The notes below the pieces were generated by a model. It did not search any database. It saw only the letters and a list, made by a program, of their open reading frames with translations, and was not told where the DNA came from. From the sequence record MZ501074: DNA of 64,000 bases; one strand, given 5' to 3'. The translations under genes were made by a program, and so were the position numbers. Positions 41,267 through 58,506 of this stretch are shown one piece after another. The stretch comes from Escherichia phage HildyBeyeler. Numbering within the stretch: position 1 is the stretch's first letter; the number at the start of each line of letters is the position of its first letter.

Positions 41267-41512
41267 ATGTTAGCAGAGCGAGCAAAACGTTTAGCTAGGG
41301 TTAATAGAGCTGCTCTTCTCAAGAGCAGGAAGAAATCATATAAGTATGTTAAAAGACGGATTATAGCTTCTGTAGAGGCTGGAGGTTCTTATGTGCAGTT
41401 TAACCGTGACGAAATTAGTTATGAAGCTATAAAAGCCCTCAATAAAGATGGTTATACTCTCAAACTATCTAATGAGTATGGCACAACTATTTTAACTGTT
41501 ATTTGGGAATAA
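41267..41512 (+). CDS. hypothetical protein
   Basis: ORF track. Confidence 0.4.
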   Translation: MLAERAKRLARVNRAALLKSRKKSYKYVKRRIIASVEAGGSYVQFNRDEISYEAIKALNKDGYTLKLSNEYGTTILTVIWE

Positions 41513-42366
41513 TTATGAAAAAAGAATTTAATGTACATAAAACTCTAGTAGTGCCAGATGATGCCAACTTGTTTTTCGTTGGTGATATTCATGGGTGCAA
41601 CGATTTGCTAGAAGATGCACTACAATTAGCTGGCTATAACGGCAAGAAAGATTGCGTTGTATGCGTAGGGGATTTAATTGACCGAGGCACGCAGAACCTA
41701 CAAGTTTTAGCCAAATTCCTGTATAATCCACGCTTTATCAGTGTCCGTGGTAATCATGACCAATTTATGATTGTGGGAGATTGGGCTAACTGGATGTATA
41801 ACGGTGGTATGTGGGCTATGAATGAACTAGATGCAGATACCATTAAAAATATTGCCGAAGACATGGCTGAAAAAATGCCAGTATTCCTAACTGTTAAACA
41901 TCGTGGCAAGAAGTATGGTGTTGTTCACGGTGCGGTTCCCTACAGGCATAAAGGGGATAATAACATATCTAAAATCCCAAATTGGGACACTCTTATTCTG
42001 GAGGCAGAGCAGGCCAAAGGGCTTGATTTAGCAGATATTATAGACGATGCTCTATGGGATAGGGATGTGATCCAAGATGTATTTTCCCATATGTCTGAGG
42101 ATGCTGACCACCCGTATTTTCAAAGATATGCTGGACTTCCAGAAAACTTAATTAATCACATTCCTAAGGTAGAAGGAGTAGAATTCGTATTTCACGGGCA
42201 TACTGGAGTTCCTTACCCAATATTATATAAGAACCGTGTCTATCTTGATACTGGCGGTGTTTTCAACGGGCAGTTGACGGTTGCGCAGGTTAATGATGAA
42301 ACTGGCAAAATCACCACATTTACCACAGACAAAAATGATAGCTGCGGTGTACAGAGGGTTCTTTAA
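41503..42366 (+). CDS. Ser/Thr protein phosphatase (calcineurin-like metallophosphoesterase)
   Basis: GDIHG, GDLIDRG and GNHD motifs in order. Confidence 0.7.
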   Translation: MGIIMKKEFNVHKTLVVPDDANLFFVGDIHGCNDLLEDALQLAGYNGKKDCVVCVGDLIDRGTQNLQVLAKFLYNPRFISVRGNHDQFMIVGDWANWMYNGGMWAMNELDADTIKNIAEDMAEKMPVFLTVKHRGKKYGVVHGAVPYRHKGDNNISKIPNWDTLILEAEQAKGLDLADIIDDALWDRDVIQDVFSHMSEDADHPYFQRYAGLPENLINHIPKVEGVEFVFHGHTGVPYPILYKNRVYLDTGGVFNGQLTVAQVNDETGKITTFTTDKNDSCGVQRVL

Positions 42367-42653
42367 TGAATGATAGAATGAAAGAAGTACAAGAAGAGTT
42401 ACGAGCAATGCGTATTGATGCCCTTCGTTGGAGGGCATTAGTTAATGCTTTCGTAAAAGGAGATACCGGAGTAATATATTCTGGAATAGCAGTCAATTTT
42501 TGTTTTAATTCTCCTGCTGAAATAGAGATAGAAACAAGGCTTACTACCTTCCTTAATGAGGTAGACCTTAAGGAAGGAGAGACTCCCGAGGAGTTTAAAA
42601 CTAGAGTATTAACTACCTGGGTTGATAATTTAATACAAAAAAGGAGTAAGTGA
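42366..42653 (+). CDS. hypothetical protein
   Basis: ORF track; ATGA overlap. Confidence 0.4.
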   Translation: MNDRMKEVQEELRAMRIDALRWRALVNAFVKGDTGVIYSGIAVNFCFNSPAEIEIETRLTTFLNEVDLKEGETPEEFKTRVLTTWVDNLIQKRSK

Positions 42654-43243
42654 TGAGGGTTAAATTCTGGTCAGACTTGCACTTAGACCACCCTGGAGCA
42701 CTACGTTTCCGTCCGTGGTTTAAGAACATGAAAGAGCACGATGAGTATATTCTAGATACTTTGTCCAAGCATATTGGTAAACGAACAAAACTTATTTTGC
42801 TAGGAGATATTGCAGTAGGTCGTGAAGGTCTGGCCAAATTAAAGTCGGTTATCCACAATGTCCCTAATCAACTCATTATGGGTAATCATGATGCGGAGCG
42901 TCAAGGACTGAGTATTAGGGACTTAGCGGAAGTTTATGACGATATTCAAGCTCTAGGCAAACAGACTGGAGGTGGCAAAAAGTTTTGGCTATCTCATTGC
43001 CCTTTGCACCCCAATGAGCTTCGGGGCAAATTAAATATTCACGGACACGTACATGCTACTTCTATACGTGACCCTCGTTACATCAATGTCTCATTTGAAA
43101 TGAGCAAAACTCCTATTCCTCTAGAAGATATTGTATCAGGTAAGTTTACTAGCTATGATAGAGTAGTTAATTGTACTACTGGCGAAGTATTACAAATAGG
43201 GGAAGATGTAGCTGCTGTATTACGTGGCGATATAAATGTCTAA
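42650..43243 (+). CDS. metallophosphoesterase
   Basis: SDLHLD, GD, GNHD and HGHVH motifs. Confidence 0.6.
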   Translation: MMRVKFWSDLHLDHPGALRFRPWFKNMKEHDEYILDTLSKHIGKRTKLILLGDIAVGREGLAKLKSVIHNVPNQLIMGNHDAERQGLSIRDLAEVYDDIQALGKQTGGGKKFWLSHCPLHPNELRGKLNIHGHVHATSIRDPRYINVSFEMSKTPIPLEDIVSGKFTSYDRVVNCTTGEVLQIGEDVAAVLRGDINV

Positions 43244-43351
43244 GTATATAGCTGGGGCTATAATTAAACGAGTCATACAAGCAGTAGCAATACTTATAAT
43301 CATTTGTATTGCTATTGGTACAGGACTAGGCATTTTAATTAAAAGTTTTAT

Positions 43352-43380
43352 TTGCTAAAATGCCTAAGTTTCTGTATAAT
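43352..43380 (+). promoter_or_regulatory. sigma70-type promoter
   Basis: TTGCTA-17-TATAAT. Confidence 0.6.
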
Positions 43381-43410
43381 TACTTTATAAATTGATGAGA
43401 GGGAAACAAA

Positions 43411-43842
43411 ATGAACAAAGTAGATAAAGCTCTAGTTTTTGCAGCAGCAGATAAGTTTGAACAAGTTAAAGCTACTTTCCGAACCCTGTTCCAGTCTTAC
43501 GTTCAGGATAAGTCTAATCCTATTTCTGAACGCTTGATGGTTTGGGAGTGTCATGCTTGCAATGCCTTGCTAATTGCTGATTACCGTAGTGATATAGATA
43601 AAGATCTTTGTGAAATCCTTATCCCCGAGGAAGCAGAACGTTATCAGTTAATCTCTTTTCAAGATTTAGCAGAACAGATCATCCCTGATGATCTTTGGGA
43701 CAAGTATTATGGTGATCCTGAAGACGAAGGAATGACTCCAGAAGCATGTATTGAACTGATCTGCAAAGATCATCCTGAAATTGCAGAAAAATTTGAGAAA
43801 GTTTTTGTTTCTGAGTTCTCCGGTGTTGTTAACGATTGGTAA
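43411..43842 (+). CDS. hypothetical protein
   Basis: ORF track; GAGAGGGAAA RBS. Confidence 0.45.
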   Translation: MNKVDKALVFAAADKFEQVKATFRTLFQSYVQDKSNPISERLMVWECHACNALLIADYRSDIDKDLCEILIPEEAERYQLISFQDLAEQIIPDDLWDKYYGDPEDEGMTPEACIELICKDHPEIAEKFEKVFVSEFSGVVNDW

Positions 43843-43859
43843 GTAATTAAAAAATTCAG

Positions 43860-43888
43860 TTGCTTCAAGCCTTAAAATTCTGTATAAT
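43860..43888 (+). promoter_or_regulatory. sigma70-type promoter
   Basis: TTGCTT-17-TATAAT. Confidence 0.6.
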
Positions 43889-43920
43889 AAGTTCATAAAT
43901 TAATGAGAGAGGAAATTCTA

Positions 43921-44199
43921 ATGGAAAACATGACTAAAGACTTCGACGCCTCTAACCTTACCAAGACTGAAATGGCCAATGTATTAGCAATTCTCCTCGA
44001 CATGCAAGGATTTGAGGGGCAACTGATGAAAATGTCTATTCCGGCGATGAAGAAGATGTATGATTCTCTTAACAAGAACGCCATGGCCTTTAACTTAGCA
44101 AAACAAGAGGCACGCTTTGCTAAGGAGCACCAAGCAGTGGCAGAACGCCGAGCAGCTAGCTTTGAGCGTGAAGTTAAGCAATTAAAGAAAAAATGCTAA
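43921..44199 (+). CDS. hypothetical protein
   Basis: ATG 43921 after GAGAGAGG (track start 43903 lies in promoter-proximal sequence). Confidence 0.45.
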   Translation: MENMTKDFDASNLTKTEMANVLAILLDMQGFEGQLMKMSIPAMKKMYDSLNKNAMAFNLAKQEARFAKEHQAVAERRAASFEREVKQLKKKC

Positions 44200-44729
44200 C
44201 ACAAGAAAGATTAAAAGAGCTATTTGAATACCGCCCGGAAACGGGCGAGTTTATTAGATTAGTAAGTATAGGTAATCAAAAAGCTGGTAGTACTGCTGGC
44301 TGTCTAAGAAAGACTGGGTATATAGAAATAAGAGTAGATAAAGTAGGCTACAAAGCACATCGACTAGCCTTCCTCTATATGGAAGGTTATATTCCCGAAG
44401 TAATAGACCACGTAAATCGTATACGGAGTGATAATAGGTGGGCTAACCTTAGAGAATCTAATAACCAAGAAAATTCTAGAAATAGAACAGCAAGGAGCAA
44501 ATCATGGTATTTGGGAATCTTTTGGCATAAACAAAAGCAAAAATGGGAAGTAAGGGTTGTAGATTCGTACAAAAAGTTAGTGCATGGTGGGTATTTTGAT
44601 TTTCTAGATCTAGAATTAGCGGTTCAAAGAGCTAATGAACTACGTTTAGAACTACATGGGCCTAACGCTGTTATAGAAACTTTTGATCATACAAAACCCT
44701 TACCTACTTTAGAGGAATTAAATAAATGA
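44193..44729 (+). CDS. HNH homing endonuclease
   Basis: HRLAFLYMEGYIPEVIDHVN...NRWANLRESN HNH signature. Confidence 0.65.
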   Translation: MLTQERLKELFEYRPETGEFIRLVSIGNQKAGSTAGCLRKTGYIEIRVDKVGYKAHRLAFLYMEGYIPEVIDHVNRIRSDNRWANLRESNNQENSRNRTARSKSWYLGIFWHKQKQKWEVRVVDSYKKLVHGGYFDFLDLELAVQRANELRLELHGPNAVIETFDHTKPLPTLEELNK

Positions 44730-45007
44730 TTACAGAAATTCTTATTGGGTTACTAGTTCTTACTACACTAGTAGCGATTGGCGGAGTTATTGGGATTGTG
44801 AATGCACGAAAAAACATGGAAAATATGCTCATTACTAATGATGGGCTACACCACCGCTTGCTAGAGCAAGAGCAGGATATTGAACTAGCACAGAGACGCT
44901 CAGATATTCTTAAAGAAAAATTAAATAATATAGAAGCAATAGTTGGGAATAATAAATTACCTGCTAAAGTAATGCGTACACAGATAATTACGGAGATTAA
45001 AAAATGA
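44726..45007 (+). CDS. hypothetical membrane protein
   Basis: ORF track; N-terminal TM helix. Confidence 0.4.
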   Translation: MITEILIGLLVLTTLVAIGGVIGIVNARKNMENMLITNDGLHHRLLEQEQDIELAQRRSDILKEKLNNIEAIVGNNKLPAKVMRTQIITEIKK

Positions 45008-45246
45008 TGTTTATTCTAGCGTTTTATTTGATTGTGGTAGGAGTTCTGGTTACTAAGTACCATACATGGGCACCAAAGAATGTAGCTAAGGTAGCACTAT
45101 TTGTTATCCCAGTTCCACTTATTATACTTTCTATGTTACTGGTGATGTTAATCGGTAAAGTGACGAAGACCGATATTAAGCGCATTGCTGACGAATTGCA
45201 ACAGTCCTGTGATATGATTGAGGATATTATTAAAGATGAAACTTAA
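45004..45246 (+). CDS. hypothetical membrane protein
   Basis: ORF track; two TM helices. Confidence 0.4.
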   Translation: MMFILAFYLIVVGVLVTKYHTWAPKNVAKVALFVIPVPLIILSMLLVMLIGKVTKTDIKRIADELQQSCDMIEDIIKDET

Positions 45247-45562
45247 TTTCAATGAGTTAAATACCTTGCATGAGCTGTTACAGTTTGTAAATAATAATAT
45301 TAGTATTCCAGCTGACACACTAGAAGTTCTCACGGTAATCGAGAAAAAGGTAGGAATTGAAATTGAGGACTCTTGGAAACCACTTTCTGTATTAACGCCA
45401 CTCAATATGAAAGTGATTGTTAAAAATATCAATACCGGAGAAGAACGTGAGATGGTTCGTACAGAACTGGCTGATAGTTACTCTCCAACGTCTGTAGTGA
45501 TGCAACATGATGGTGTTTCTGAAGTTCTACAGACAGCTAATTACGTATGGCGTCTCCCATGA
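45236..45562 (+). CDS. hypothetical protein
   Basis: In-frame ATG 45236; track ORF 45218-45562. Confidence 0.4.
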   Translation: MKLNFNELNTLHELLQFVNNNISIPADTLEVLTVIEKKVGIEIEDSWKPLSVLTPLNMKVIVKNINTGEEREMVRTELADSYSPTSVVMQHDGVSEVLQTANYVWRLP

Positions 45563-45661
45563 TTGATCTAGTACCAATTACTGCGGGACTAATAGCACTA
45601 TTAGTGCTCGCAGTTTTCATTATTGTGGAGCAGGCCAAAGTAATAAGGAGACTTAAAAACA

Positions 45662-45862
45662 ATGATAAAACGTCTTGTTTATCAGACACCAAAGATTGTA
45701 ACTGAGTATTTTGTATTACTGCCTCAAATTGTATTTCTAACAGCATTATTTAATATACTTTTTCGACATCTAGGAATAACAGAAAATATATTCTATACTT
45801 CTGGGTTACTTCCTTTTATGTACGAAGGCATCATTATGGCGATTAACGGGGTTCGTAAATGA
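45662..45862 (+). CDS. hypothetical membrane protein
   Basis: ORF track; AAGGAG RBS. Confidence 0.4.
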   Translation: MIKRLVYQTPKIVTEYFVLLPQIVFLTALFNILFRHLGITENIFYTSGLLPFMYEGIIMAINGVRK

Positions 45863-46326
45863 CAGCGCTACAACAACTACAGAATTACTGGTTTGATAAC
45901 CAATTTAACGATCTTTTCATCCAGTTGTTTGTCGAAACGAACGGACGCTTCAACTACCGATTCTTTAATAAGTTTCATGAAACAAAATTCTCACATACAG
46001 AAATTAATGCAGCGATCCAAGACCTAACTGGTTCTAAAGTAATTCAATATCGCGAAGTAGACTTTACACCAGATTGTTTTGGGTTTGAATTGTTTAAGAA
46101 AGCATATAAGTTTGGTAAGTTTGAAGATGCTCGTCAATGGGTTCACGATTTTTGGTATAACACCGATATTGTTCCTAGTCGCGTGCTGATTCTTAACTGG
46201 ATTGCTAAGCAACATCCACCTAAAATGCAATCATCCTTCTTACCGACTGCCACAGGAAACCTCTACCATGACAGAAAAGAAGAATCCATTATTGGAGCAG
46301 ATGAAGGAGTGGGAGAGCAATATTGA
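45859..46326 (+). CDS. hypothetical protein
   Basis: ORF track; ATGA overlap. Confidence 0.45.
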   Translation: MTALQQLQNYWFDNQFNDLFIQLFVETNGRFNYRFFNKFHETKFSHTEINAAIQDLTGSKVIQYREVDFTPDCFGFELFKKAYKFGKFEDARQWVHDFWYNTDIVPSRVLILNWIAKQHPPKMQSSFLPTATGNLYHDRKEESIIGADEGVGEQY

Positions 46327-46639
46327 ATCTGGTCTAATAGACGGTGAAGATATTGTTAATTCCATGTTAGAAGTAACAGTAGATAATATTAATCCTATTT
46401 TGGAGGGAGAAACCTCAGATCTTATAGGACTCTCTAGCACATTTGATTCTTTGGCTAAATTAGCTTTAGACGATGAAGAGATAACCAAAGAAGATCTCGC
46501 TACAGCTATGAATATGGCTATTAATGCTTACATCGGTAAACGTACTGATGAACTTGGTAAACAGATCAAAAAGCGTGATGCTACGCTAGGTCTTATGGAA
46601 ACGGCCACTATGTTACGAAGTGGTAAACAACTTCATTAA
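46268..46639 (+). CDS. hypothetical acidic protein
   Basis: In-frame ATG 46268 after AGGAAA; track ORF 46202-46639. Confidence 0.4.
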   Translation: MTEKKNPLLEQMKEWESNIESGLIDGEDIVNSMLEVTVDNINPILEGETSDLIGLSSTFDSLAKLALDDEEITKEDLATAMNMAINAYIGKRTDELGKQIKKRDATLGLMETATMLRSGKQLH

Positions 46640-46695
46640 TTTTAGGGGGCCAGGGCTTAACTGTTCTGGCCTTTTATGTTTTCAAGGAAATTCAA

Positions 46696-46899
46696 ATGCA
46701 AGTATATGTCCTTACTAGAGATATAAATGAGTATAATCAGGATGGTGAGTATTTTGTAAAAGTATTCGCTGAAAAGCCAAGTAAACAACAATTATTAGAT
46801 GTTGGAGTACCGGAAGACCAGGCTAAGTGTTTATTACAGGATAAAGAGTTTACTGGAGATGCTTACGAATGTTTCCACCTTAGCTGTGAGACTATTTAG
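46696..46899 (+). CDS. hypothetical small protein
   Basis: ORF track. Confidence 0.4.
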   Translation: MQVYVLTRDINEYNQDGEYFVKVFAEKPSKQQLLDVGVPEDQAKCLLQDKEFTGDAYECFHLSCETI

Positions 46900-46900
46900 T

Positions 46901-47347
46901 ATGAGAGAAAAAGTAAATGAATTATTAATCGAGGAAGCTAACAACTTTCCAATAAATAGGTTCGTCAAATCAGATGGGTCTATTAATAGAACTAAGATTA
47001 AGCAGCTACACCCCGACTTCCAGCAAGAAGCGCTAAACCTTATCTTTATCAAGAAAGCCATTGCAGCTCACGGGGCTTTCTTTGGGTATGAGCGTGTAAA
47101 TTATAAAACAATGCAGCAGCAAGTCGAGATCTATTGTCCAGACCATGATGGTTATTACTGGCAAACTGCTAGATCTCATTTAGAAGGGCATGGATGTCGA
47201 CTGTGCGCACACAAGGTTGTGCAGCGTGTCACGGATTATGGAACTTATACCGTACCAGCATGTTACCATAAATTTGTAATTGACGATAATCACATAGTTT
47301 GGTATAATAAGTTTTCAAAGTTAAGAATGGAGATAAGTAGTGAGTAG
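46901..47347 (+). CDS. hypothetical protein with CxxH...CxxC zinc-binding-like motif
   Basis: ATG 46901 directly after upstream stop; CPDHDGYYW...HGCRLCAH. Confidence 0.45.
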   Translation: MREKVNELLIEEANNFPINRFVKSDGSINRTKIKQLHPDFQQEALNLIFIKKAIAAHGAFFGYERVNYKTMQQQVEIYCPDHDGYYWQTARSHLEGHGCRLCAHKVVQRVTDYGTYTVPACYHKFVIDDNHIVWYNKFSKLRMEISSE

Positions 47348-47630
47348 CTATATTGTATGGTCAAACCCACTAGCAGCACTTAGTAACAAACTATTTAAAA
47401 CAACGTGGGGGTATAATGAAATAGACTTAGGTAGTCACCCAATACCAAACAAACATCCCTTAGTTCCAGAGCTGTATAGGGTAGTGATAAATGGCGCGGA
47501 GTATTTGGTTGATAAATTTGACAGAAAACGTTTACTAGAGGGTATCTACGATAATTCTACATCAATAAATGAATTAGTAGAACATGCCCAAATATATGAT
47601 AAAAGCTGGATGTTAATATGGAGATCATAG
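47340..47630 (+). CDS. hypothetical protein
   Basis: ORF track. Confidence 0.4.
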   Translation: MSSYIVWSNPLAALSNKLFKTTWGYNEIDLGSHPIPNKHPLVPELYRVVINGAEYLVDKFDRKRLLEGIYDNSTSINELVEHAQIYDKSWMLIWRS

Positions 47631-47842
47631 TAATTATTTTAGCAGTTATGTTGTTTATTGTAACATTTGTATCATTTGCTATTATGCGCAGAGCTAGAGA
47701 ACTAGCGGAAGATATAACAAAATTACGTGGTGAGTTGGCTGCCCTTAAACTACAGCGCGAGGCTTTAAAGTTATTTGTGGTTCAAGTAGCGTGGAGCATA
47801 CAACAGAAGACTTCATCACGTATCTCAAACATTACATGGTAA
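47618..47842 (+). CDS. hypothetical membrane protein
   Basis: ORF track; TM helix. Confidence 0.35.
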   Translation: MEIIVIILAVMLFIVTFVSFAIMRRARELAEDITKLRGELAALKLQREALKLFVVQVAWSIQQKTSSRISNITW

Positions 47843-47849
47843 TTAAATA

Positions 47850-49368: not shown

Positions 49369-49385
49369 ACGTTAACAAAATCTTC

Positions 49386-50800: not shown

Positions 50801-50822
50801 GGAAGTGAGAAACACTGTTATT

Positions 50823-51386: not shown

Positions 51387-51401
51387 AATAACGCCCCGTT
51401 A

Positions 51402-51683: not shown

Positions 51684-51707
51684 CGAAAATATATAATCTC
51701 ATTAGTA

Positions 51708-51869: not shown

Positions 51870-51878
51870 ATTATTTAC

Positions 51879-52214
51879 CTATTTTCGAAACGCTGTTTCA
51901 ATACTATCAGCCGTGGATTGAATATACGCGCCTTTCATTATCAGGCGCTCGGTGCATACTTTGCGAAAAATATTAATAAAATCATCTTCATTTTCTGCGA
52001 TTAACGCCTCCCCCATGACCTGAATATCACACGATGCAAAGGTCAAAAATTGAAACGCTAGTTCACGGGCGACGACCGCATTAATTTTATAATGCGCCTT
52101 TCCATCGTAAATATTAACAACGCCCTTATATTCAGGCGAAAGCTGATTTAAGTAGTTTGCTAATAATCCCGGGCGGCAATTAGTAACAAAGCGATTCCCT
52201 TCATAAATTACCAT
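51879..52214 (-). CDS. hypothetical protein
   Basis: ATG 52214 (MVIYEGNRF) preceded by GGGAGG; track ORF 51879-52229. Confidence 0.45.
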   Translation of the reverse strand: MVIYEGNRFVTNCRPGLLANYLNQLSPEYKGVVNIYDGKAHYKINAVVARELAFQFLTFASCDIQVMGEALIAENEDDFINIFRKVCTERLIMKGAYIQSTADSIETAFRK

Positions 52215-52215
52215 T

Positions 52216-52341
52216 TTATAACCTCCCAATCAGATAGCCAGATAAAAGCATAAAAATCCCCAGCGAACTAGGGTCATTCTTAAACAAGGTGGCGGTAAAA
52301 CCGCCAACCATTGCAAGGATAACAACAATAACGCTTTTCAT
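52216..52341 (-). CDS. hypothetical mini membrane protein (41 aa)
   Basis: Hand translation MKSVIVVILAMVGGFTATLF...; ATGA-coupled to upstream gene; not in ORF track. Confidence 0.35.
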   Translation of the reverse strand: MKSVIVVILAMVGGFTATLFKNDPSSLGIFMLLSGYLIGRL

Positions 52342-52550
52342 AGTACCCCACGAAACGCAGCGTAAAAGGTGGCAAAGTGTCTAACCGTTTCAGCTATCAC
52401 GTTGCCGCGCTTATCGAATTTTTTCTCGGTAACACGAAAGGCGTTTTTATTCCGTGCTACATATTCGATTTTACAATCTTCCCGCTCGAACGTGTTAACG
52501 TCCACCAGCTTAAAGCCTTTGGAACGAGCAAGGGAAACATTACGAATCAT
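52338..52550 (-). CDS. hypothetical protein
   Basis: ORF track. Confidence 0.4.
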   Translation of the reverse strand: MIRNVSLARSKGFKLVDVNTFEREDCKIEYVARNKNAFRVTEKKFDKRGNVIAETVRHFATFYAAFRGVL

Positions 52551-52552
52551 TT

Positions 52553-52741
52553 TTATTCTCCTTTACTATTCATGCAGCCCAGCAGATAAGAAAATACAGC
52601 GACACCCGCGCCAATAATAACCATAGGTTTAGTATTTGCTAAACTGCAATAAGAATCCTGAATACCATAAGCGGTGGCGAAAAGAGTCAAAATAGCGCCC
52701 AAGATACCTGCTAAAAAAGCCCGAAAAATAACCATTTTCAT
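52553..52741 (-). CDS. hypothetical two-helix membrane protein
   Basis: ORF track; two hydrophobic stretches. Confidence 0.4.
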   Translation of the reverse strand: MKMVIFRAFLAGILGAILTLFATAYGIQDSYCSLANTKPMVIIGAGVAVFSYLLGCMNSKGE

Positions 52742-52781
52742 TCTCCTAGTTAGTGGGGCGAAAGTAGCGCCCCGTTATTAC

Positions 52782-53012
52782 TTACATTAAAACGATTTTG
52801 GCGGCTTGTTTTTTGGTGCAATGTTCTGCTTTCAGGGTATCCAGCAAAAAGCCCGCCGTTTGCTGATCGATTTGATCATTATCATAAAGCGCCTGAATGG
52901 TAGTGTAAGTTTTAGCAATGCCGTATTCTTGCACCATTTCTTGAATGATCCAGCGATTTGATACCCAGCCTTTTCCAGTGAAAAGATGACTAGCAGAAGA
53001 ATAAGCAACCAT
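52782..53012 (-). CDS. hypothetical protein
   Basis: ORF track. Confidence 0.4.
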   Translation of the reverse strand: MVAYSSASHLFTGKGWVSNRWIIQEMVQEYGIAKTYTTIQALYDNDQIDQQTAGFLLDTLKAEHCTKKQAAKIVLM

Positions 53013-53130
53013 TATAAGCCTCCAAAATTTTTTGGGAAATTTTCAACCGTCCTCAAACGGTGTAAGGGCATTATAACAAAAAGGCCGCCATAATCGGCGA
53101 CCTTTACAAAACTTTACATTAGATTATTTA

Positions 53131-54123
53131 TTACTCGTTTTCGGTGTTAGTGGTAAAAGTAGAAATATCGATACCTTTTACCATTTCATCAATCATCTCA
53201 GCGATGTTAAAACTTTGCACCATTTCCAACATTGCCGCTTCCATAGCCGCTCCTGCTACCGCTTTCGCTTTCTGGTTATTCGGGGCGTACTGGTCAACCG
53301 CTACACTCAGCAGGTTAGCGATCACTACTCGACCGATCGGCGTATCAATATAGCCTTTAATCATAAATGGCGCTTTTTTAGCCGCTACTTTCGTGATTTG
53401 AGTTAGTGCAATTTTACCCGCTTCCAGTTTTGCAGCATTTACAACAGCGGATTTATTAGCGGCAACGATGTTAGCGATCTTAGTCATGGTATTTTTTCCT
53501 TTGTTTTCAGTGGTTTGAGTGTTAACGCTTTGAGTGTTAGAATTTACAGCATGTTTTTCTATATTGTCAATAGGCTGATCTTCATCTTTCCAGAAAGAAA
53601 AGCCCGCGCTTTCTATATCCCCATCGTATACGTATGGGTATACTTCCGACGGTAGCAAAAAATTGCCATCATCATCAAAGGCCATTACAGCCGCCAGACG
53701 ATACCCGTCACCGATTGACCGATTCCAGCCAACTGATAAATAACGCCAAAATGAATCAAGAAAGTTTTCAACGTCATAAAGATCCTTATCATAAGGCTCA
53801 TAATTTTCTATTGAAAAAACTTCTAAGCCCGCCCCAGCATCATAGGCTTTTACTGTGCTACCTTTTACGATTATGAAATCAGTGTCCGGCCCCCTACTAG
53901 TAAGCAGGTGATTATCCCTATTATATAAGATAATAGTTGCCCCTTGCTTATATAATGGTAGAAAACTACTCATATCATAGGCGTCGAAATCATCAAAAAA
54001 ATTCTGGTGAATATCTTCGGCCTTGTTAACAAAGTGCTTAATGCTGGTTGTTCTGCTACCGTCCAGCAGGTTGCGCAGCGCACCTTTTAAGACGGTTGCG
54101 TTATCTGGTTTATATAGCCTCAT
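53131..54123 (-). CDS. hypothetical two-domain protein (330 aa)
   Basis: ORF track; acidic N-terminal domain, N/T/Q-rich linker, A/K-rich C-terminal domain; no motif recognised. Confidence 0.55.
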   Translation of the reverse strand: MRLYKPDNATVLKGALRNLLDGSRTTSIKHFVNKAEDIHQNFFDDFDAYDMSSFLPLYKQGATIILYNRDNHLLTSRGPDTDFIIVKGSTVKAYDAGAGLEVFSIENYEPYDKDLYDVENFLDSFWRYLSVGWNRSIGDGYRLAAVMAFDDDGNFLLPSEVYPYVYDGDIESAGFSFWKDEDQPIDNIEKHAVNSNTQSVNTQTTENKGKNTMTKIANIVAANKSAVVNAAKLEAGKIALTQITKVAAKKAPFMIKGYIDTPIGRVVIANLLSVAVDQYAPNNQKAKAVAGAAMEAAMLEMVQSFNIAEMIDEMVKGIDISTFTTNTENE

Positions 54124-54389
54124 TTGTTGGCCTCCCTCGTTAATCGGTGAGTGAATGATAAAGGCAATTTTCTAGCATAGGCAAATATTATTTTACCTTT
54201 TTATTTTCCTTGCCTAGCGCCTAGTTTTATGCTAACCGCGCAGCGGTACAGTAAAGAGCAAAACACGGTGAAGCCACCAGGCCGACGCGTTGAGGCTTTA
54301 CTTTAATATTACCCCACTGCGTTTAGCTCGTTAGAAAGCGATTTAGGCCGCTTAAAATTGATTGCAGTTGTTAACACTACCTTTTTACC

Positions 54390-54497
54390 CTGTATATTTA
54401 TACAGTAGGATAACCTGTGGATAAGTCTGTGGATAAGCCCTTATATCGCCGCCTATTGTGTCAAATCATTTTGTGCTGTGATTAAGTCTGTGGATAA
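54390..54497 (-). promoter_or_regulatory. right inverted repeat with three DnaA boxes (reverse orientation) and palindrome
   Basis: TGTGGATAA at 54416, 54428, 54489; CTGTATATTTATACAG at 54390-54405; mirrors 50823-50936. Confidence 0.8.
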
Positions 54498-54538
54498 CTT
54501 AAATGATAGTTTTTCTCACTTAGGCCGATAGTTTCTTA

Positions 54539-54580
54539 TAGTGATTATTTTTATAGTGATTATTTTTATAGTTATTATTT
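54539..54580 (+). repeat. tandem 15-bp AT-rich repeats (ATAGTGATTATTTTT)
   Basis: Two perfect units plus one degenerate, read directly. Confidence 0.6.
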
Positions 54581-55247
54581 CTCATTAATTTATATGTATA
54601 TTATATAATATGAAATAGTTAGTTGGCTAATGAGATTTTACGGGATTAGTAGTCTGCTAATGGTTCAGGCTGTTACAATCCACCAGCACGATTATCATTC
54701 TAGTAATTATTAGTCTGCTATCTTTCTAATACACAACAACAAATAAAAGTCAATTAATTAATTTTATAAAATAACTCATTTAGTCTTGATTTTTAAAAGT
54801 CAATACCTTTTACAACTATTTTTCAATTTTGCTTTTATTAAATATTTGTTAAGTCGAAAATAAGCCGCCTAAAACGCCCTAGAAAGCGGTAAAATTTTCA
54901 GGTATCCCATCATAAGGGGATAGCCCGTTTATCGTCACCTGATGGATTCTAGAAAAATCAAGTAGGGCAAGGCAAATATAAGTGAAAAAATTACTTGCCT
55001 ATCTGCTATGTTTTGTGGTATCCGCGCGCCCGTTTCCTTTAAACTTGGGCAATCGCCGGACACCTTGCTTTCTTTACATTTCTTTACAAAAATAAGGTTG
55101 CGCCATTTTTGGTATTTGCTATTATTTACCTCGTAGGGCGGCAATGACGAACTACACGGCGGGAAGTTTACCGCCGCGCTCTTTAAAAATTGGGTATATC
55201 TTAAAGTCTATCGGCGGCAAACTTATACATTATAAGGAATCGCAGAT

Positions 55248-55451
55248 ATGAAACAAACTTTATTGATCACTGGCAAGCCAGCTAAAAAACTGGATGGCAA
55301 TACTAGAAAGCTGTTGACAGTAGCGCAAAGATCAGTAAAATATCGATTTAAGCAGTACAAGAAAGGCCGCCAGCAAGGTCTAGAAATGATCTGGCGAAAT
55401 ATTATGATCGACCTAAAGGAAAATCATAAAAAACTGCAAAAAATTGTTTGA
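55248..55451 (+). CDS. hypothetical basic protein
   Basis: ORF track; AAGGAA RBS. Confidence 0.4.
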   Translation: MKQTLLITGKPAKKLDGNTRKLLTVAQRSVKYRFKQYKKGRQQGLEMIWRNIMIDLKENHKKLQKIV

Positions 55452-55679
55452 CAACCTAGCCGATAGGCTTTAAGATGTACCCAGTTCGATAAGAGCGATA
55501 ACTTGATACAATTTGACGGCCGGTACTTGCCATAATGTGCCCCGCCCCCTAACTGGGATATAGCGGCCCGCGTGGAGTTCTTTAAATTGATTATATTGGC
55601 AAGCGGATTTTTTCTTATTACCTGCTAGAAAGTAGCAGGTAATGCGGAACAATCCACTAAATAAACTGGAGTTTATACT

Positions 55680-55931
55680 ATGCAAAACATTACTAATGCG
55701 CCGAAAGTTGGTCAATCCGTTTTTATCCCTTTCGTTACTAAAACGGACGAGGCAACCGGAAAGGCCGAACGCATCAAAGGCGCGGCGCTTATGCCGTTTG
55801 ATGTGATTGATGCGGTATACGCTGAAACGGAACAGAGTAACAACGGGAAAACCGTTTTTAGCGTTCGCGTTAAATCCGGCGACGTTGTAAAGGTTGCCCA
55901 GCGTAACGAAAAATGGGAAGCTGTAGCGTAA
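55680..55931 (+). CDS. hypothetical protein
   Basis: ORF track; followed by CCCCCAG...CGGGGGG hairpin. Confidence 0.45.
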   Translation: MQNITNAPKVGQSVFIPFVTKTDEATGKAERIKGAALMPFDVIDAVYAETEQSNNGKTVFSVRVKSGDVVKVAQRNEKWEAVA

Positions 55932-56034
55932 TATAGTGTTAACTTTATATTCCCCCAGTAGTTCGGGGGGAATATAACGATTAACATTATGTTAATCATT
56001 TAATCCCTTAAATTAAATCGATAGGAGCTATATC

Positions 56035-56451
56035 ATGACTAACGTTAAAGCCGAAAAATCCGCAAAATTTGCTTGGAATGAAGAAAACACCCAGCAGGCG
56101 GTTACTATGTATCAGCAGTTAATTAATGAAAACGGATTAGATTTTGCAAATAGCGACGGTTTAAAAGAGATTGCGAAAGCAGTTGGCGCGGCTTCTCCCG
56201 TGTCCGTTCGGTCAAAATTGACCAGCGCGAAAGCCTATCAAAAAAGCGATAAGCCGCGCAAAGTTGGCGGCGGCAGTTCAATCCGCAAAGCGCATTACGT
56301 GCGCGTTATTGCAAAACATGCCATCGATTCCGGCATTATCAAGGACGCCGATGATCTGGCATCACTGGAAAGCGCAAAATTAGAAACGTTGGACGTCGTG
56401 GCGCAGATGTTAGGCGTTGCCGATGAAGTAAAACAAGCCGCAGGCGAATAA
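56035..56451 (+). CDS. hypothetical protein
   Basis: ORF track; GGAG RBS. Confidence 0.45.
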   Translation: MTNVKAEKSAKFAWNEENTQQAVTMYQQLINENGLDFANSDGLKEIAKAVGAASPVSVRSKLTSAKAYQKSDKPRKVGGGSSIRKAHYVRVIAKHAIDSGIIKDADDLASLESAKLETLDVVAQMLGVADEVKQAAGE

Positions 56452-56540
56452 TAGTTATATCTTGCCCCTTCTAGCGAGGGGGCAATAATATAACTGTTTA
56501 GCGATAGTTATTTTCTTCCCCTAAATCAGGAGTTTTAAAA

Positions 56541-56738
56541 ATGATCTTTTACCCTACTGAATCGCTCATTCTAGGATTATTTATTATGGCGGCCTCATTA
56601 TTGTTTGCTTATTTCCAAAATGATCTGGATTCGTATTATTTTAAGCGCAAAGCTAAATTAGCAAAGCGGTTGGGCTTACTTTGCTTAATTGCCGCCGTTG
56701 CTTGTGGTGTTAGTTCTAGCCTGATGCCGATTAGTTAA
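56541..56738 (+). CDS. hypothetical membrane protein
   Basis: ORF track; two TM helices; hairpin ATAACGCC...GGCGTTAT downstream. Confidence 0.4.
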   Translation: MIFYPTESLILGLFIMAASLLFAYFQNDLDSYYFKRKAKLAKRLGLLCLIAAVACGVSSSLMPIS

Positions 56739-56835
56739 ATATCGCAAGTTATAACGCCTATTATTTAAGGCGTTATATCTGGCAATATTGCCAATAACAA
56801 ACGTTTTTTAATCCCTTTAATGGAGTTTTATTATT

Positions 56836-58506
56836 ATGGTTATTTCCGCAGAAAAACAAACCCAGATCCTCAACCTTGCCGCTGATTTCAATTTCTATGG
56901 TAAACGTCTGCGCGCTACTAAGCTGGAAGTTTGTGACGATATTTCAAAAGCTGTTTATGATACGCCGAAACATTCCACCGCTATTTGTGACTGGTTGGAA
57001 GCAAATAAACCAGCGAAACCGAAAGCGGCGAAAGTAGCAAAAGCCATAAAAAACGATGACCGCCCTGAAGCCGCTGGAGTTATTTCTAGCACGGTGGAGC
57101 AATGGGAAGTAAAACAAGGCAAACGCTTTATCATTACATCGATTCAGAATAATACTTTCCCGCATAAAAACTTTTTGGCCGCGCTTGAACAATATGCCCA
57201 ATTTATTGGAGCTGATTTGCTGGTTAGCAAGTATATTTATAATAAAAACGGTTTTCAAAATGGGGAAGGGGCAGACGGAATCAAATATGATTCTGCATTT
57301 GACAAATATATTTGCAGCAAAAACGTGTTTTTAAATAACCGCCGCTTTGCTTTCATGGCTGAAATTAATGTTTTGCCAACCGCAGATTATCCGCTATCTG
57401 GATTTGCTGAAACTGCAACCGCGCTTAATCTGGAAGGTCTGGCAATTGGTCACGCTAAAATCACCGCCGAAAGCGTGCCAGCTTTAAAAGGTGAAGTAGT
57501 GCGCCGCATGTATTCAACCGGAACGGCAACGCTAAAAAATTACATTCAGCAGAAGGCAGGGCAAAAAGCGGAAGCGTTACATAATTTTGGTGCGCTGATT
57601 GTCGAGTTCGACGAGGACGGAGAATTTTTTGTTCGCCAGCTTGAAACGATGGACGAAAGCGGCGTTTTTTACGATTTGAATATTTGCGCCACTCCCACCG
57701 GATGCTATGAAACAACGGGGCACGTTTTAGGTTTACAGTATGGTGACATCCACGCTGAAAAATTAGATGAAGAGTGCGCCGCTGCATCATGGGGGCATGG
57801 TGATACCTATGGGCTTGTGGATATTCTCAAACCAAAATATCAATTCGTCCATGACGTGCATGATTTTACATCACGCAACCATCACAACCGCGCCTCCGGT
57901 GTATTCCTAGCAAAACAGTACGCCGCCGGACGTGATAAGGTTCTGGATGATCTTATCGATACGGGGCGCGTACTGGAAGCAATGGAGCGTGATTTCTCTC
58001 AAACAATCATTGTTGAATCGAATCACGATCTGGCGTTATCCCGCTGGCTTGATGATCGTAATGCTAACATTAAAGACGACCCAGCAAACGCGGAACTATA
58101 TCACCGCCTGAATGCCGCGATTTACGGAGCTATCGCAGAAAAAGACGAAACCTTCAACGTGCTTGATTATGCGTTGCGCAAGGTTGCAGGTTGCGAGTTT
58201 AACGCCATTTTCCTAACGACTGACCAATCTTTCAAGATTGCAGGCATTGAATGCGGCGTACACGGTCACAATGGCATTAACGGGAGTCGTGGCAATCCTA
58301 AACAGTTTAAGAAATTGGGCAAATTAAACACGGGGCATACTCATACGGCAAGCATTTACGGCGGTGTATATACCGCTGGCGTTGCTGGTAGTCTGGACAT
58401 GGGTTACAACGTTGGCGCGTCAAGCTGGACGCAAACGCATATTATTACCTATGTAAACGGTCAGCGCACTTTGATTGACTTTAAGAATGGTAAATTTTTC
58501 GCATAA
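56836..58506 (+). CDS. A1: A1-like pre-early protein, metallophosphoesterase-type nuclease
   Basis: 556 aa; GDIH, ESNHD and GVHGHNG phosphoesterase motifs; size and context recalled to match T5 A1. Confidence 0.5.
   Translation: MVISAEKQTQILNLAADFNFYGKRLRATKLEVCDDISKAVYDTPKHSTAICDWLEANKPAKPKAAKVAKAIKNDDRPEAAGVISSTVEQWEVKQGKRFIITSIQNNTFPHKNFLAALEQYAQFIGADLLVSKYIYNKNGFQNGEGADGIKYDSAFDKYICSKNVFLNNRRFAFMAEINVLPTADYPLSGFAETATALNLEGLAIGHAKITAESVPALKGEVVRRMYSTGTATLKNYIQQKAGQKAEALHNFGALIVEFDEDGEFFVRQLETMDESGVFYDLNICATPTGCYETTGHVLGLQYGDIHAEKLDEECAAASWGHGDTYGLVDILKPKYQFVHDVHDFTSRNHHNRASGVFLAKQYAAGRDKVLDDLIDTGRVLEAMERDFSQTIIVESNHDLALSRWLDDRNANIKDDPANAELYHRLNAAIYGAIAEKDETFNVLDYALRKVAGCEFNAIFLTTDQSFKIAGIECGVHGHNGINGSRGNPKQFKKLGKLNTGHTHTASIYGGVYTAGVAGSLDMGYNVGASSWTQTHIITYVNGQRTLIDFKNGKFFA

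What the first reader, a model, noticed from the sequence alone, without database searches (positions are those of the whole stretch)
41503..58506. Three calcineurin-like metallophosphoesterases
Genes 41503-42366 (lambda-phosphatase-like), 42650-43243 and the 556-aa A1-like protein all carry GDxH...GNHD...GHxH motifs. The A1-like protein probably acts as a nuclease for host DNA degradation. The roles of the two smaller enzymes are open.
Basis: partly seen in the sequence, partly recalled or inferred. Interest (0 to 1): 0.35.

Follow-up and report, generated by a model that had tools for sequence, protein, structure and literature searches.

The report
Three known T5 metallophosphoesterase genes
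The window is a T5-like phage genome, and the three genes are its already-annotated lambda-type phosphatase, its small phosphoesterase and the host-DNA-destroying protein A1; all three do have the two-metal phosphoesterase fold, so the finding is correct but ordinary.

Summary
The window is a T5-like (Demerecviridae) phage, reverse-complemented relative to the T5 map.

- **Gene 1 (41515-42366)** is the T5.035 "NinI-like" phosphatase. It matches Pfam Metallophos at 3e-15 and lambda phosphatase 1G5B at 3e-30, and every lambda catalytic residue is kept.
- **Gene 2 (42653-43243)** is the T5.034 phosphoesterase. It falls just below Pfam cut-offs alone, but its family profile hits Aquifex aq_1665 (1XM7) at 2e-21. 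The AF2 model (pLDDT 95.5) matches 1XM7, and all five motifs are invariant.

Published T5 genetics shows A1 is necessary and sufficient for host DNA degradation, and it is already called a predicted metallophosphatase. The three genes are not one system. A1 is a pre-early gene in the terminal repeat. The other two sit in an early operon 14 kb away, and their substrates remain unknown. Already known; low interest.

The parts
41515..42366 (+). Motif codons: GDIH 41581-41592, GDLIDR 41668-41685, GNHD 41749-41760, H138 41926-41928, R183 42061-42063, GHT 42196-42204.
   Evidence: Pfam Metallophos 3.3e-15, above cut-off. 1G5B 2.6e-30. NCBIfam PrpA 4e-27 and PrpB 8e-22, both below equivalog cut-offs. 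phrog_246 at 5e-89. Alignment with lambda NinI and T5.035 (79% identical): all catalytic residues are invariant, with two ~18-aa insertions and a ~19-aa C-terminal tail relative to lambda.
42366..42653 (+). 95-aa ORF of unknown function wedged between the two phosphoesterase genes. It overlaps gene 1's stop (TAATG) and gene 2's start (TGATG). It is absent from T5, where T5.035 and T5.034 abut.
   Evidence: Sequence. phrog_14979, unknown function, 2e-62. No Pfam hit. T5 map. Present in Salmonella phage Tennessee.
42653..43243 (+). Gene 2: T5.034-type small single-domain metallophosphoesterase, 196 aa. Motif codons: SDLH 42671-42682, GD 42803-42808, GNHD 42881-42892, H115 42995-42997, GHVH 43043-43054.
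   Evidence: Pfam Metallophos_2 24.6 bits (cut-off 27) and Metallophos 20.4 bits (cut-off 21.5), both just below. phrog_547 at 3e-56. In a 50-sequence family alignment D8, H10, G51, D52, G77, N78, H79, H115, G131, H132 and H134 are invariant. Family profile vs PDB: 1XM7 at 2e-21, Mre11/SbcD ~7e-4. AF2 pLDDT 95.5. Foldseek: 1XM7 at 5.7e-11, then YfcE, Mre11, Vps29, LpxH. 52% identical to T5.034.
56836..58506 (+). A1 pre-early protein, 556 aa, 96% identical to T5 A1.
   Evidence: BLASTP vs T5.004. phrog_1745 at 5e-244. AF2 pLDDT 89.9, pTM 0.81.
56836..57015 (+). A1 residues 1-60: three-helix N-terminal domain, a putative DNA-binding helix-turn-helix. It is followed by a low-confidence linker (residues 61-85).
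   Evidence: AF2 helices 5-17, 26-41 and 47-56; pLDDT ~50 for residues 61-80. Some homologues carry precomputed HTH_23, HTH_38 or HTH_7 Pfam hits. A published GcrA-like structural match exists, and four of five retron-Ec67 escape mutations map here. Those residues (A15, C33, I36, S47) are conserved in the window.
57091..57717 (+). A1 residues 86-294: conserved beta-rich middle domain of unknown role. It has many invariant residues, e.g. Q104, N105, T107, Y135, N235, Y236, H249, R267.
   Evidence: Alignment A1. DSSP of the model. No profile similarity to the gene-2 family. It is part of the core conserved across 2,470 cluster representatives.
57718..58503 (+). A1 residues 295-556: divergent metallophosphoesterase catalytic domain. 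Motif codons: GDIH 57742-57753, HDVHD 57850-57864, NHH 57877-57885, SNHD 58018-58029, H476 58261-58263, GHTH 58333-58344.
56035..56451 (+). A2 homologue (DNA-binding partner of A1, required for second-step DNA transfer). Context only, not a phosphoesterase.
   Evidence: Position relative to A1 as in T5. Annotated 'A2 protein' in the related phage Tennessee. No Pfam hit.
59321..60097 (+). dmp homologue (deoxynucleoside-5'-monophosphatase). This is the step downstream of A1 in host-DNA catabolism. It is not a metallophosphoesterase.
   Evidence: Synteny with T5.001. phrog_415 at 3e-57. No Pfam hit and no MPE motifs.

Best explanation
**What is shown.** The window is a T5-like phage. It encodes three very distantly related members of the binuclear metallophosphoesterase (calcineurin-like) superfamily. 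They belong to two separate expression units.

**A1 (pre-early gene, first-step-transfer DNA in the terminal repeat).**
- It has an N-terminal three-helix DNA-binding domain, a flexible linker, a conserved beta-rich domain and a C-terminal metallophosphoesterase domain.
- The predicted metal ligands and catalytic residues are D304, H306, D340, N396, H397, H476, H501 and H503.
- Inferred mechanism: like Mre11/SbcD and the PolD DP1 exonuclease, it uses two divalent metals (probably Mn2+) to hydrolyse DNA phosphodiester bonds.
- It is made within the first minutes from the 8% of the genome injected first, and it destroys the host chromosome.
- The resulting dNMPs are dephosphorylated by Dmp, encoded 0.8 kb downstream.
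- Together with A2 it is also needed for entry of the rest of the genome. The mechanism of that role is unknown.

**Genes 1 and 2 (early genes).**
- They lie about 7 kb beyond the injection-stop region, in one translationally coupled operon (T5.036-like ORF, gene 1, 95-aa ORF, gene 2).
- Gene 1 is a lambda-NinI/PrpA-type phosphatase with a complete active site. The most likely activity is Mn2+-dependent dephosphorylation of phosphoproteins. Lambda phosphatase also cleaves 2',3'-cyclic nucleotides, so a nucleotide substrate is possible.
- Gene 2 is a minimal aq_1665-type metallophosphoesterase with a complete active site. The most likely activity is Mn2+-dependent phosphodiester hydrolysis on a nucleotide or nucleic-acid substrate.
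- Both are probably dispensable accessory host-takeover functions.

The three genes do not form one system.
For: **Identity of the phage and genes:**

**Gene 1:**

**Gene 2:**

**A1 fold and motifs:**

**A1 function (literature):**
- Necessary and sufficient for host DNA degradation in vivo, and called a 'predicted metallo-phosphatase' sharing features with DSB-repair nucleases and polymerase proofreading subunits (10.64898/2026.04.02.716235).
- HHpred C-terminal nuclease domain plus N-terminal GcrA-like DNA-binding domain (10.1101/2022.08.27.505566).
- A1/Dmp pathway summarised in PMC13250531.

**Supporting precedents:**
- A small phage metallophosphoesterase acts as a host-genome DNase (PMC12287305).
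- Lambda phosphatase has dual mono- and diesterase activity (PMC2190708).

**Operon structure:** overlapping stops and starts, plus flanking terminator- and promoter-like sites.

**A1 outside two-step-injecting phages:** A1-like genes occur in T4-like contigs and in Caulobacter, Rhizobium and Flavobacterium phages. This argues for a general enzymatic role rather than a transfer-specific one.
Against: - No sequence library (Pfam, NCBIfam, PDB by phmmer or family HMM) recognises A1 as a metallophosphoesterase.
- Profile-profile similarity to the gene-2 family is marginal: 20% probability full length, 45% for the C-terminal domain.
- The A1 assignment therefore rests on a predicted, not solved, structure plus motif conservation. 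I could not inspect the model's active-site geometry.
- In vitro nuclease activity of purified A1 is explicitly still to be tested. The authors keep open that A1 activates a host nuclease.
- How T5 DNA escapes A1 is unexplained.
- For genes 1 and 2 there is no experimental or contextual evidence for any particular substrate.
- Gene-2 homologues sit in unrelated neighbourhoods in other phages.
- Lambda ninI is non-essential and its in vivo role is unknown.
Confidence: 0.8

Rival explanations
1. A1 has the metallophosphoesterase fold but is not itself the DNase. It acts as a phosphatase or regulator that unleashes a host nuclease (for example by inactivating an inhibitor), and host enzymes carry out the degradation.
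Against: A1 alone is sufficient for chromosome loss in E. coli. It carries an N-terminal DNA-binding-type domain. The best structural neighbour is an active 3'-5' exonuclease, PolD DP1, followed closely by SbcD and Mre11. The complete catalytic motif set is invariant. Homologues occur in phages of very different hosts (Vibrio, Caulobacter, Flavobacterium, Rhizobium), where a common host partner is less likely.
Confidence: 0.12
2. A1 (with A2) is a sequence-specific, restriction-like endonuclease. It cuts sites that are present in host DNA but absent from first-step-transfer DNA, and RecBCD completes the degradation (Davison's model).
For: Proposed in bioRxiv 10.1101/866236 to explain why first-step-transfer DNA survives. 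A1 has a separate putative DNA-binding domain.
Against: The metallophosphoesterase nucleases that A1 resembles (DP1, Mre11/SbcD, PdeM) are structure- or end-specific rather than sequence-specific; this rests on established knowledge of those families. Host DNA degradation does not need A2. The N-terminal domain is the least conserved part of the family, while the catalytic core is conserved in phages of unrelated hosts. Nothing here tests site specificity directly.
Confidence: 0.08
3. Genes 1 and 2 are not protein phosphatases. They are nucleic-acid or nucleotide phosphodiesterases used for counter-defence or repair: healing 2',3'-cyclic-phosphate RNA ends left by host anticodon nucleases, hydrolysing Ap4A or cyclic-nucleotide immune signals, or nicking DNA.
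For: Lambda phosphatase hydrolyses 2',3'-cyclic nucleotides. Gene 1 has secondary similarity to ApaH (2e-15), bacterial Pnkp (2e-9) and a PHROG annotated as RNA ligase. Gene 2's only NCBIfam hit is the DNA-damage endonuclease PdeM (1e-5, far below cut-off), and its fold neighbours include Mre11 and P. putida MPE nuclease. A small mycobacteriophage metallophosphoesterase is a DNase. In an Acinetobacter T4-like phage the gene-2 homologue lies between gp47 and gp46. The phage carries 21 tRNA genes.
Against: Gene 1's best matches by a wide margin are the protein phosphatases lambda NinI, PrpA and PrpB. No RNA ligase or kinase partner is nearby. Gene-2 neighbourhoods are not conserved between phage families. 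There are no PADLOC or defence-related matches. There are no experiments.
Confidence: 0.3
4. The motif matches, at least in A1, are coincidental short patterns in an unrelated protein.
For: Short His/Asp motifs are common. Pfam, NCBIfam and PDB sequence searches do not recognise A1.
Confidence: 0.01

Closest known systems
Bacteriophage T5 A1 (T5.004, 'DNA transfer protein'; predicted metallo-phosphatase)
   Same: 96% identical over all 556 residues. Same position next to A2, T5.005 and dmp in the first-step-transfer region. The escape-mutation residues described for T5 are conserved.
   Different: 20 substitutions, none in the motifs. Effectively the same protein.
PolD small subunit DP1 (3'-5' proofreading exonuclease, PDB 5IHE) and Mre11/SbcD nucleases
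   Different: Only 13-15% identity and no detectable sequence homology. A1 has SNHD and HDxHD variants and an extra invariant NHH. There is no Rad50/SbcC or DP2 partner gene beside it. A1 has its own N-terminal helix-turn-helix and an unrelated conserved middle domain. Non-nuclease members (YfcE, LpxH) score almost as high.
Lambda Ser/Thr phosphatase NinI (PDB 1G5B) and E. coli PrpA/PrpB
   Same: Gene 1 is 34% identical to lambda NinI. D20, H22, D49, D52, R53, N75, H76, H139, R162 and H186 are all matched. PrpA and PrpB are the best NCBIfam hits.
   Different: Gene 1 has two ~18-aa insertions between motifs IV and V and a ~19-aa C-terminal tail. It scores far below the PrpA/PrpB equivalog cut-offs (96 vs 326 bits). 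It is encoded by a virulent phage as an early gene rather than in a lambdoid nin region.
Aquifex aeolicus aq_1665 (PDB 1XM7, function unknown) and the phage 'phosphoesterase' family phrog_547 / T5.034
   Same: Gene 2's family profile hits 1XM7 at 2e-21 over the full length. Foldseek gives TM ~0.7 at 26% identity. It has the same minimal single-domain architecture. Homologues are present in 1,390 phage records.
   Different: No member has a known substrate. Gene 2 is only 52% identical to T5.034 and has a longer C-terminal tail.
Mycobacteriophage A10ZJ24 Gp48 (metallophosphoesterase that degrades host DNA; PMC12287305)
   Same: An early-expressed phage metallophosphoesterase with all five motifs that damages host genomic DNA and is toxic. 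This is the same strategy as A1.
   Different: A different, small single-domain protein. I did not obtain its sequence, so its relation to gene 2 or A1 was not tested.

Membership tests
Binuclear metallophosphoesterase (calcineurin-like) superfamily - gene 1 | Five ordered motifs (DxH / GDxxD / GNH[DE] / H / GHx[H]) and a significant match to the family model | tested here: met
   Pfam PF00149 at 57.4 bits vs cut-off 21.5. Motifs at residues 23-26, 52-57, 79-82, 138 and 228-230.
Lambda/PPP-type protein phosphatases (NinI, PrpA/B) - gene 1 | GDxHG, GDxxDRG and GNH[DE] signatures, plus the phosphate-binding Arg residues and His general acid of lambda phosphatase | tested here: met
   D24, H26, D53, D56, R57, N80, H81, H138, R183 and H229 align with lambda D20, H22, D49, D52, R53, N75, H76, H139, R162 and H186. 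1G5B at 2.6e-30. It does not reach the PrpA/PrpB equivalog cut-offs.
Lambda/PPP-type protein phosphatases - gene 1 | Mn2+-dependent phosphoprotein phosphatase activity | not testable with these tools
   Needs an enzyme assay.
Binuclear metallophosphoesterase superfamily - gene 2 | Five ordered motifs, conserved across the family | tested here: met
   D8, H10, G51, D52, G77, N78, H79, H115, G131, H132 and H134 are invariant in 50 sequences.
Binuclear metallophosphoesterase superfamily - gene 2 | Match to the curated family model above its threshold | tested here: inconclusive
   This sequence alone scores 24.6 bits against a cut-off of 27 (PF12850) and 20.4 against 21.5 (PF00149), both just below. 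Many homologues carry precomputed PF00149 or PF12850 hits. The family profile hits 1XM7 at 2e-21.
Binuclear metallophosphoesterase superfamily - gene 2 | Two-sheet beta-sandwich metallophosphoesterase fold | tested here: met
   AF2 pLDDT 95.5. Foldseek: 1XM7 at 5.7e-11, and the hits listed at E<=1e-3 are metallophosphoesterase-fold proteins. This is a predicted, not solved, structure.
Binuclear metallophosphoesterase superfamily - A1 | Match to a curated sequence model or to a solved member by sequence | tested here: not met
   No Pfam, NCBIfam or PDB hit with either the single sequence or the family HMM. hhalign to the gene-2 family gives 20-45% probability only.
Binuclear metallophosphoesterase superfamily - A1 | Five ordered motifs, conserved across the family | tested here: met
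   G303, D304, H306; H339, D340, D343; S395, N396, H397; H476; G500, H501, H503 are invariant in 46 sequences of 42-90% identity. Variants: Ser for Gly in motif III, His for Gly in motif II.
Binuclear metallophosphoesterase superfamily - A1 | Metallophosphoesterase fold | tested here: met
Mre11/SbcD nuclease family - A1 | Nuclease domain plus capping domain, working with a Rad50/SbcC ATPase encoded alongside | tested here: not met
PolD DP1 / polymerase B-subunit family - A1 | OB domain plus phosphodiesterase domain, bound to a catalytic polymerase subunit | tested here: inconclusive
DNase activity of A1 | Metal-dependent hydrolysis of DNA by the purified protein | not testable with these tools
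   In vivo necessity and sufficiency are published for the 96%-identical T5 protein. The in vitro assay is stated as future work.

The most novel reading that the evidence does not exclude
The A1 core (conserved beta-rich domain plus divergent metallophosphoesterase domain) may define a very large, still uncurated family of phage host-chromosome-destroying nucleases. This family would be independent of T5's two-step injection.

- The family profile finds 2,470 representative clusters.
- Homologues sit in T4-like myovirus contigs (next to a ClpP-like gene), and in phiCbK-like Caulobacter phages, Rhizobium and Rhodobacter siphoviruses and Flavobacterium podoviruses.

In this reading the 'DNA transfer protein' label is a T5-specific side effect. 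Separately, the co-transcribed small phosphatase/phosphoesterase pair could be counter-defence enzymes acting on nucleotide signals or damaged RNA or DNA ends.
Probability: 0.3. Interest if true: 0.45.

Novelty: already known. Interest (0 to 1): 0.15.

Why it matters
A1 is the key host-takeover enzyme of T5-like phages. It wipes out the host chromosome within minutes, and its products feed the Dmp nucleotide-disposal pathway. It is toxic enough to drive 'mutual destruction' when infection stalls (PMC13250531), and it is the determinant sensed by retron Ec67. Confirming that this window's copy has an intact metallophosphoesterase active site is useful for annotation, because some records still label it 'hypothetical' or 'DNA transfer protein'. 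It adds nothing conceptually new. The two small enzymes are widespread in phages (about 1,300-1,400 phage records each) and uncharacterised. They are reasonable but unremarkable targets for biochemical screening.

Tried and rejected
- **Sequence-only recognition of A1.** Pfam, NCBIfam, PADLOC, phmmer and family-HMM searches against PDB all failed. The one 'significant' HMM hit (3-dehydroquinate dehydratase, E 0.0015) is a local SNHE/SNHD coincidence and was rejected.
- **hhalign of A1 against the gene-2 family.** Marginal only: 20% full length, 45% for the C-terminal domain. The middle domain gave nothing.
- **Gene neighbourhood of gene-2 homologues in other phage families.** I checked Kayvirus, an Acinetobacter T4-like phage and Kuravirus to infer a substrate. 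There is no conserved context. The gp47/gp46 placement in one phage is suggestive but isolated.
- **Literature searches for T5.034, T5.035, aq_1665 and phrog_547 function.** Nothing relevant.
- **A fourth metallophosphoesterase in the window.** Considered and rejected: a motif scan of all 95 long reading frames finds only these three. Dmp is not one.
- **The three genes as one functional module.** Considered and rejected. A1 is in the terminal-repeat pre-early region. The other two are in an early operon on the far side of the injection-stop repeats.
- **AFDB50 fold search.** Unavailable.

Full report
**Source of the window.** Megablast of 41000-59000 finds 551 phage records, all T5-like (Demerecviridae) phages of Salmonella, Escherichia and Klebsiella. 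Coverage is 86-91% at 88-91% identity, and the annotated features include 'A1 protein', 'NinI-like serine-threonine phosphatase' and 'phosphoesterase'. Compared with the T5 reference (NC_005859), the window is the reverse complement of the left ~60 kb of the T5 map.
- Gene 1 corresponds to T5.035, gene 2 to T5.034 and the 556-aa protein to A1 (T5.004).
- Protein identities to T5 are 79%, 52% and 96%.
- Genes 1 and 2 are 100% identical at protein level to those of Salmonella phage Tennessee, OZ075147. The spacing to A1 differs by about 1.2 kb, so the source is a related mosaic genome.

**Check of the observation.** All three ORFs are present on the + strand (translations).
- Sequence context favours ATG 41515 for gene 1. 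It lies 3 nt after the upstream stop, and the TTG at 41503 lies inside the upstream ORF.
- Context favours ATG 42653 for gene 2. It sits in a TGATG overlap, 7 nt after AAGGAG.
- Motif positions were verified by script:
  - Gene 1: GDIH, GDLIDR, GNHD, H138, GHT.
  - Gene 2: SDLH, GD, GNHD, H115, GHVH.
  - A1: GDIH, HDVHD, SNHD, H476, GHTH.
- Among 95 stop-to-stop segments of at least 100 aa in all six frames, only these three carry the ordered motif set.
- Shuffling each protein 200,000 times reproduces the five-motif pattern in 60, 18 and 163 cases.

**Gene 1 (41515-42366, 283 aa).**
- It passes Pfam Metallophos (57.4 bits, cut-off 21.5).
- It matches lambda phosphatase 1G5B at 2.6e-30 in two blocks, and phrog_246 'NinI-like serine-threonine phosphatase' at 5e-89.
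- Its best NCBIfam models are the E. coli protein phosphatases PrpA (4e-27) and PrpB (8e-22). ApaH (2e-15) and bacterial Pnkp (2e-9) follow, and all are below the equivalog cut-offs.
- A three-way alignment with T5.035 and lambda NinI shows invariant D24, H26, D53, D56, R57, N80, H81, H138, R183 and H229. These are all the lambda metal ligands, the phosphate-binding arginines and the general-acid His.
- Relative to lambda there are two ~18-residue insertions between motifs IV and V and a ~19-residue C-terminal tail.
- Homologues occur in 1,293 phage records.

**Gene 2 (42653-43243, 196 aa).**
- On its own it falls just under both Pfam thresholds (24.6 vs 27 and 20.4 vs 21.5). It hits 1XM7 only at E 0.004.
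- It belongs to phrog_547 'phosphoesterase' at 3e-56.
- A homologue search gave 57 proteins, many with precomputed PF00149 or PF12850 hits.
- In a 50-sequence alignment, D8, H10, G51, D52, G77, N78, H79, H115, G131, H132 and H134 are invariant.
- The family profile hits Aquifex aq_1665 (1XM7, function unknown) at 2e-21 over its whole length, and Mre11/SbcD N-termini at ~7e-4.
- The AF2 model is very confident (pLDDT 95.5, pTM 0.91). Its Foldseek neighbours are 1XM7 (5.7e-11, TM ~0.7), then YfcE, Mre11, Vps29, LpxH, MJ0936 and P. putida MPE nuclease.
- The only NCBIfam hit is the DNA-damage endonuclease PdeM at 1e-5, far below cut-off.
- Homologues are present in 1,390 phage records from very different lineages: T5-likes, Kayvirus, Listeria and Acinetobacter myoviruses, Kuravirus, actinophages and Lak megaphages.
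- Neighbourhoods are not conserved. In Acinetobacter phage PhT2 the gene lies between gp47 and gp46.

**A1 (56836-58506, 556 aa).**
- *Sequence libraries.* Pfam, NCBIfam and PADLOC give nothing. PDB searches with the sequence or with a 46-member family HMM give no metallophosphoesterase. PHROGs only returns phrog_1745 'DNA transfer protein'.
- *Conservation.* The homologue search returned 767 proteins. In an alignment of 46 of them (42-90% identity), every proposed motif residue is invariant: G303, D304, H306; H339, D340, D343; S395, N396, H397; H476; G500, H501, H503. An additional N348, H349, H350 triad is also invariant.
- *Profile comparison.* hhalign against the gene-2 family is weak: 20% probability full length and 45% (E 2e-4) for residues 295-556. 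The greedy alignment is collinear on motifs I, III and V. The middle domain shows nothing.
- *Structure.* The AF2 model is confident (pLDDT 89.9, pTM 0.81). It shows three N-terminal helices (5-56), a disordered linker (about 61-85), a beta-rich domain (about 90-294) and a beta-alpha-beta domain in which each motif follows a strand as in canonical metallophosphoesterases.
- *BFVD.* Against viral models, full-length relatives appear first (Pseudomonas phage pf16, TM 0.82). Generic viral metallophosphoesterases and phage proteins annotated 'DNA polymerase II small subunit' follow.
However, it rests on conservation plus a predicted structure, not on detectable sequence homology.

**What is published about A1.**
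- Annor et al. (bioRxiv 10.64898/2026.04.02.716235) call A1 a predicted metallo-phosphatase. They show it is essential, toxic, and both necessary and sufficient for chromosomal DNA degradation in vivo. They note structural features shared with DSB-repair nucleases and polymerase proofreading subunits. They leave in vitro nuclease activity, and the alternative that A1 activates a host nuclease, for future work.
- Stokar-Avihail et al. (bioRxiv 10.1101/2022.08.27.505566) found by HHpred a C-terminal nuclease domain and by structure comparison an N-terminal GcrA-like DNA-binding domain. All five T5 escapers of retron Ec67 map to A1: A15T, C33R, I36T, S47P and V214M. These residues are unchanged in the window.
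- Davison's preprint proposes a restriction-like A1/A2 endonuclease.
- PMC13250531 summarises the A1-to-Dmp route of host DNA catabolism and attributes the toxicity of stalled infections to pre-early products such as A1.
- A mycobacteriophage metallophosphoesterase (Gp48) that damages host DNA is an independent precedent.

**Genomic organisation.** The three genes are not a unit.
- A1 lies in the pre-early, first-step-transfer block: A2 at 56035-56451, a 65-aa ORF, A1, two small ORFs, then dmp at 59321-60097. This matches T5.006 to T5.001.
- Between that block and the early genes lies a repeat-rich non-coding stretch (49.7-51.2 kb). It corresponds to the T5 injection-stop signal.
- Genes 1 and 2 are early genes. 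A terminator-like hairpin at 40764-40789 precedes the unit, and a good sigma-70-like promoter (43352-43380) follows gene 2.
- Within the unit, the stop and start codons of the T5.036-like ORF, gene 1, the 95-aa ORF and gene 2 abut or overlap. This implies co-transcription and translational coupling.
- In T5 the two enzymes are directly adjacent. The 95-aa ORF (phrog_14979, unknown) is an insertion typical of this sub-lineage.

**Most likely mechanism.**
- *Shown:* three complete metallophosphoesterase active-site signatures, and their conservation.
- *Shown in the literature for the 96%-identical T5 protein:* A1 alone causes host chromosome loss.
- *Inferred for A1:* it binds DNA through its N-terminal domain, and perhaps its middle domain. 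It hydrolyses phosphodiester bonds with a two-metal centre formed by D304, H306, D340, N396, H476, H501 and H503, with H397 assisting. Dmp then dephosphorylates the resulting dNMPs.
- *Inferred for gene 1:* a Mn2+-dependent phosphoprotein phosphatase of the lambda/PrpA type, with possible cyclic-nucleotide diesterase side activity as shown for lambda phosphatase (PMC2190708).
- *Inferred for gene 2:* a Mn2+-dependent phosphodiesterase with a nucleotide or nucleic-acid substrate.
- The last two are best guesses with no direct support. Lambda ninI itself is non-essential.

**Breadth of the A1 family.** A profile search of 1.84 billion representatives finds 2,470 clusters at E<=1e-3, and 1,618 at <=1e-30. 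The matches typically cover residues ~70/97 to 556, so the N-terminal domain is the variable part.
- Two ~45%-identical homologues lie in T4-like myovirus contigs. These contigs carry gp5, gp53, baseplate, topoisomerase II, ribonucleotide reductase and RNA ligase genes. Each A1-like gene is followed by a ClpP-like gene.
- tblastn finds A1-like genes in 1,133 phage records, including Vibrio, Flavobacterium, Caulobacter, Rhizobium, Rhodobacter and Shewanella phages. Several are already annotated 'A1-like'.
- This argues that the conserved activity is a general enzymatic one, most simply DNA degradation. It argues against a function peculiar to two-step DNA transfer.

**Verdict.** All of it is already in the T5 annotation and literature. 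Novelty: already known. Interest is low. The only open questions are in vitro proof of A1's DNase activity, how phage DNA is spared, and the substrates of the two small enzymes.

Noticed in passing
window 49700-51200 and 54416-54497: Repeat-rich non-coding region matching the T5 injection-stop signal. It has ten same-strand copies of TCGGATT[TC]GCACA (49769-50547) and palindromic AAATGAGAATCATTCTCATTT units (50565-51160). Three perfect DnaA boxes (TTATCCACA) lie at 50827, 50888 and 50900, mirrored by three inverted boxes at 54416, 54428 and 54489. That makes 8 perfect boxes in the window against ~0.5 expected.
   Followed up: partly
window 59321-64000: After dmp, the leftmost T5 gene, the window runs straight into an HNH endonuclease gene (60273-60812, minus strand) and a pb5-like receptor-binding tail protein (62203-63990, phrog_4815). 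The source assembly therefore has the terminal repeat collapsed or is circularly permuted.
   Followed up: partly
L007 8001-10297; L008 8001-10168: A1 homologues (~45% identity) occur in T4-like myovirus contigs. Each is immediately followed by a ClpP-like protease gene and preceded by a 341/342-aa ORF. L007 also has a Gad2-domain (anti-Gabija) gene 1.6 kb upstream. T5-likes carry a ClpP-like gene too (window 37676-38269).
   Followed up: no
window 42366-42653: A 95-aa ORF of unknown function (phrog_14979) is inserted between the two phosphoesterase genes with overlapping stop and start codons on both sides. It is absent in T5. Gene 2 is only 52% identical to T5.034 while gene 1 is 79% identical to T5.035, so this short module is mosaic.
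   Followed up: partly
window 41267-41512: The 81-aa early-region ORF upstream of gene 1 is labelled 'major head protein' in the T5 RefSeq record (T5.036) and in phrog_7354. That label is implausible for a protein of this size and position, and is probably a propagated annotation error.
   Followed up: no
window 20861-32057: Cluster of 21 tRNA genes on the + strand, as expected for T5-like phages.
   Followed up: no
window 57091-57717 (A1 residues 86-294): The middle domain of A1 is as strongly conserved as the catalytic domain (invariant Q104, N105, T107, Y135, N235, Y236, H249, R267 and others). It is part of the family-wide core but has no recognisable relatives by profile comparison. The retron-escape mutation V214M maps here.
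   Followed up: partly
window 59321-60097: Dmp, the dNMP phosphatase acting downstream of A1, has no Pfam hit. It matches phrog_415, annotated 'polynucleotide kinase', so it appears to belong to a different phosphatase lineage from the three metallophosphoesterases.
   Followed up: no
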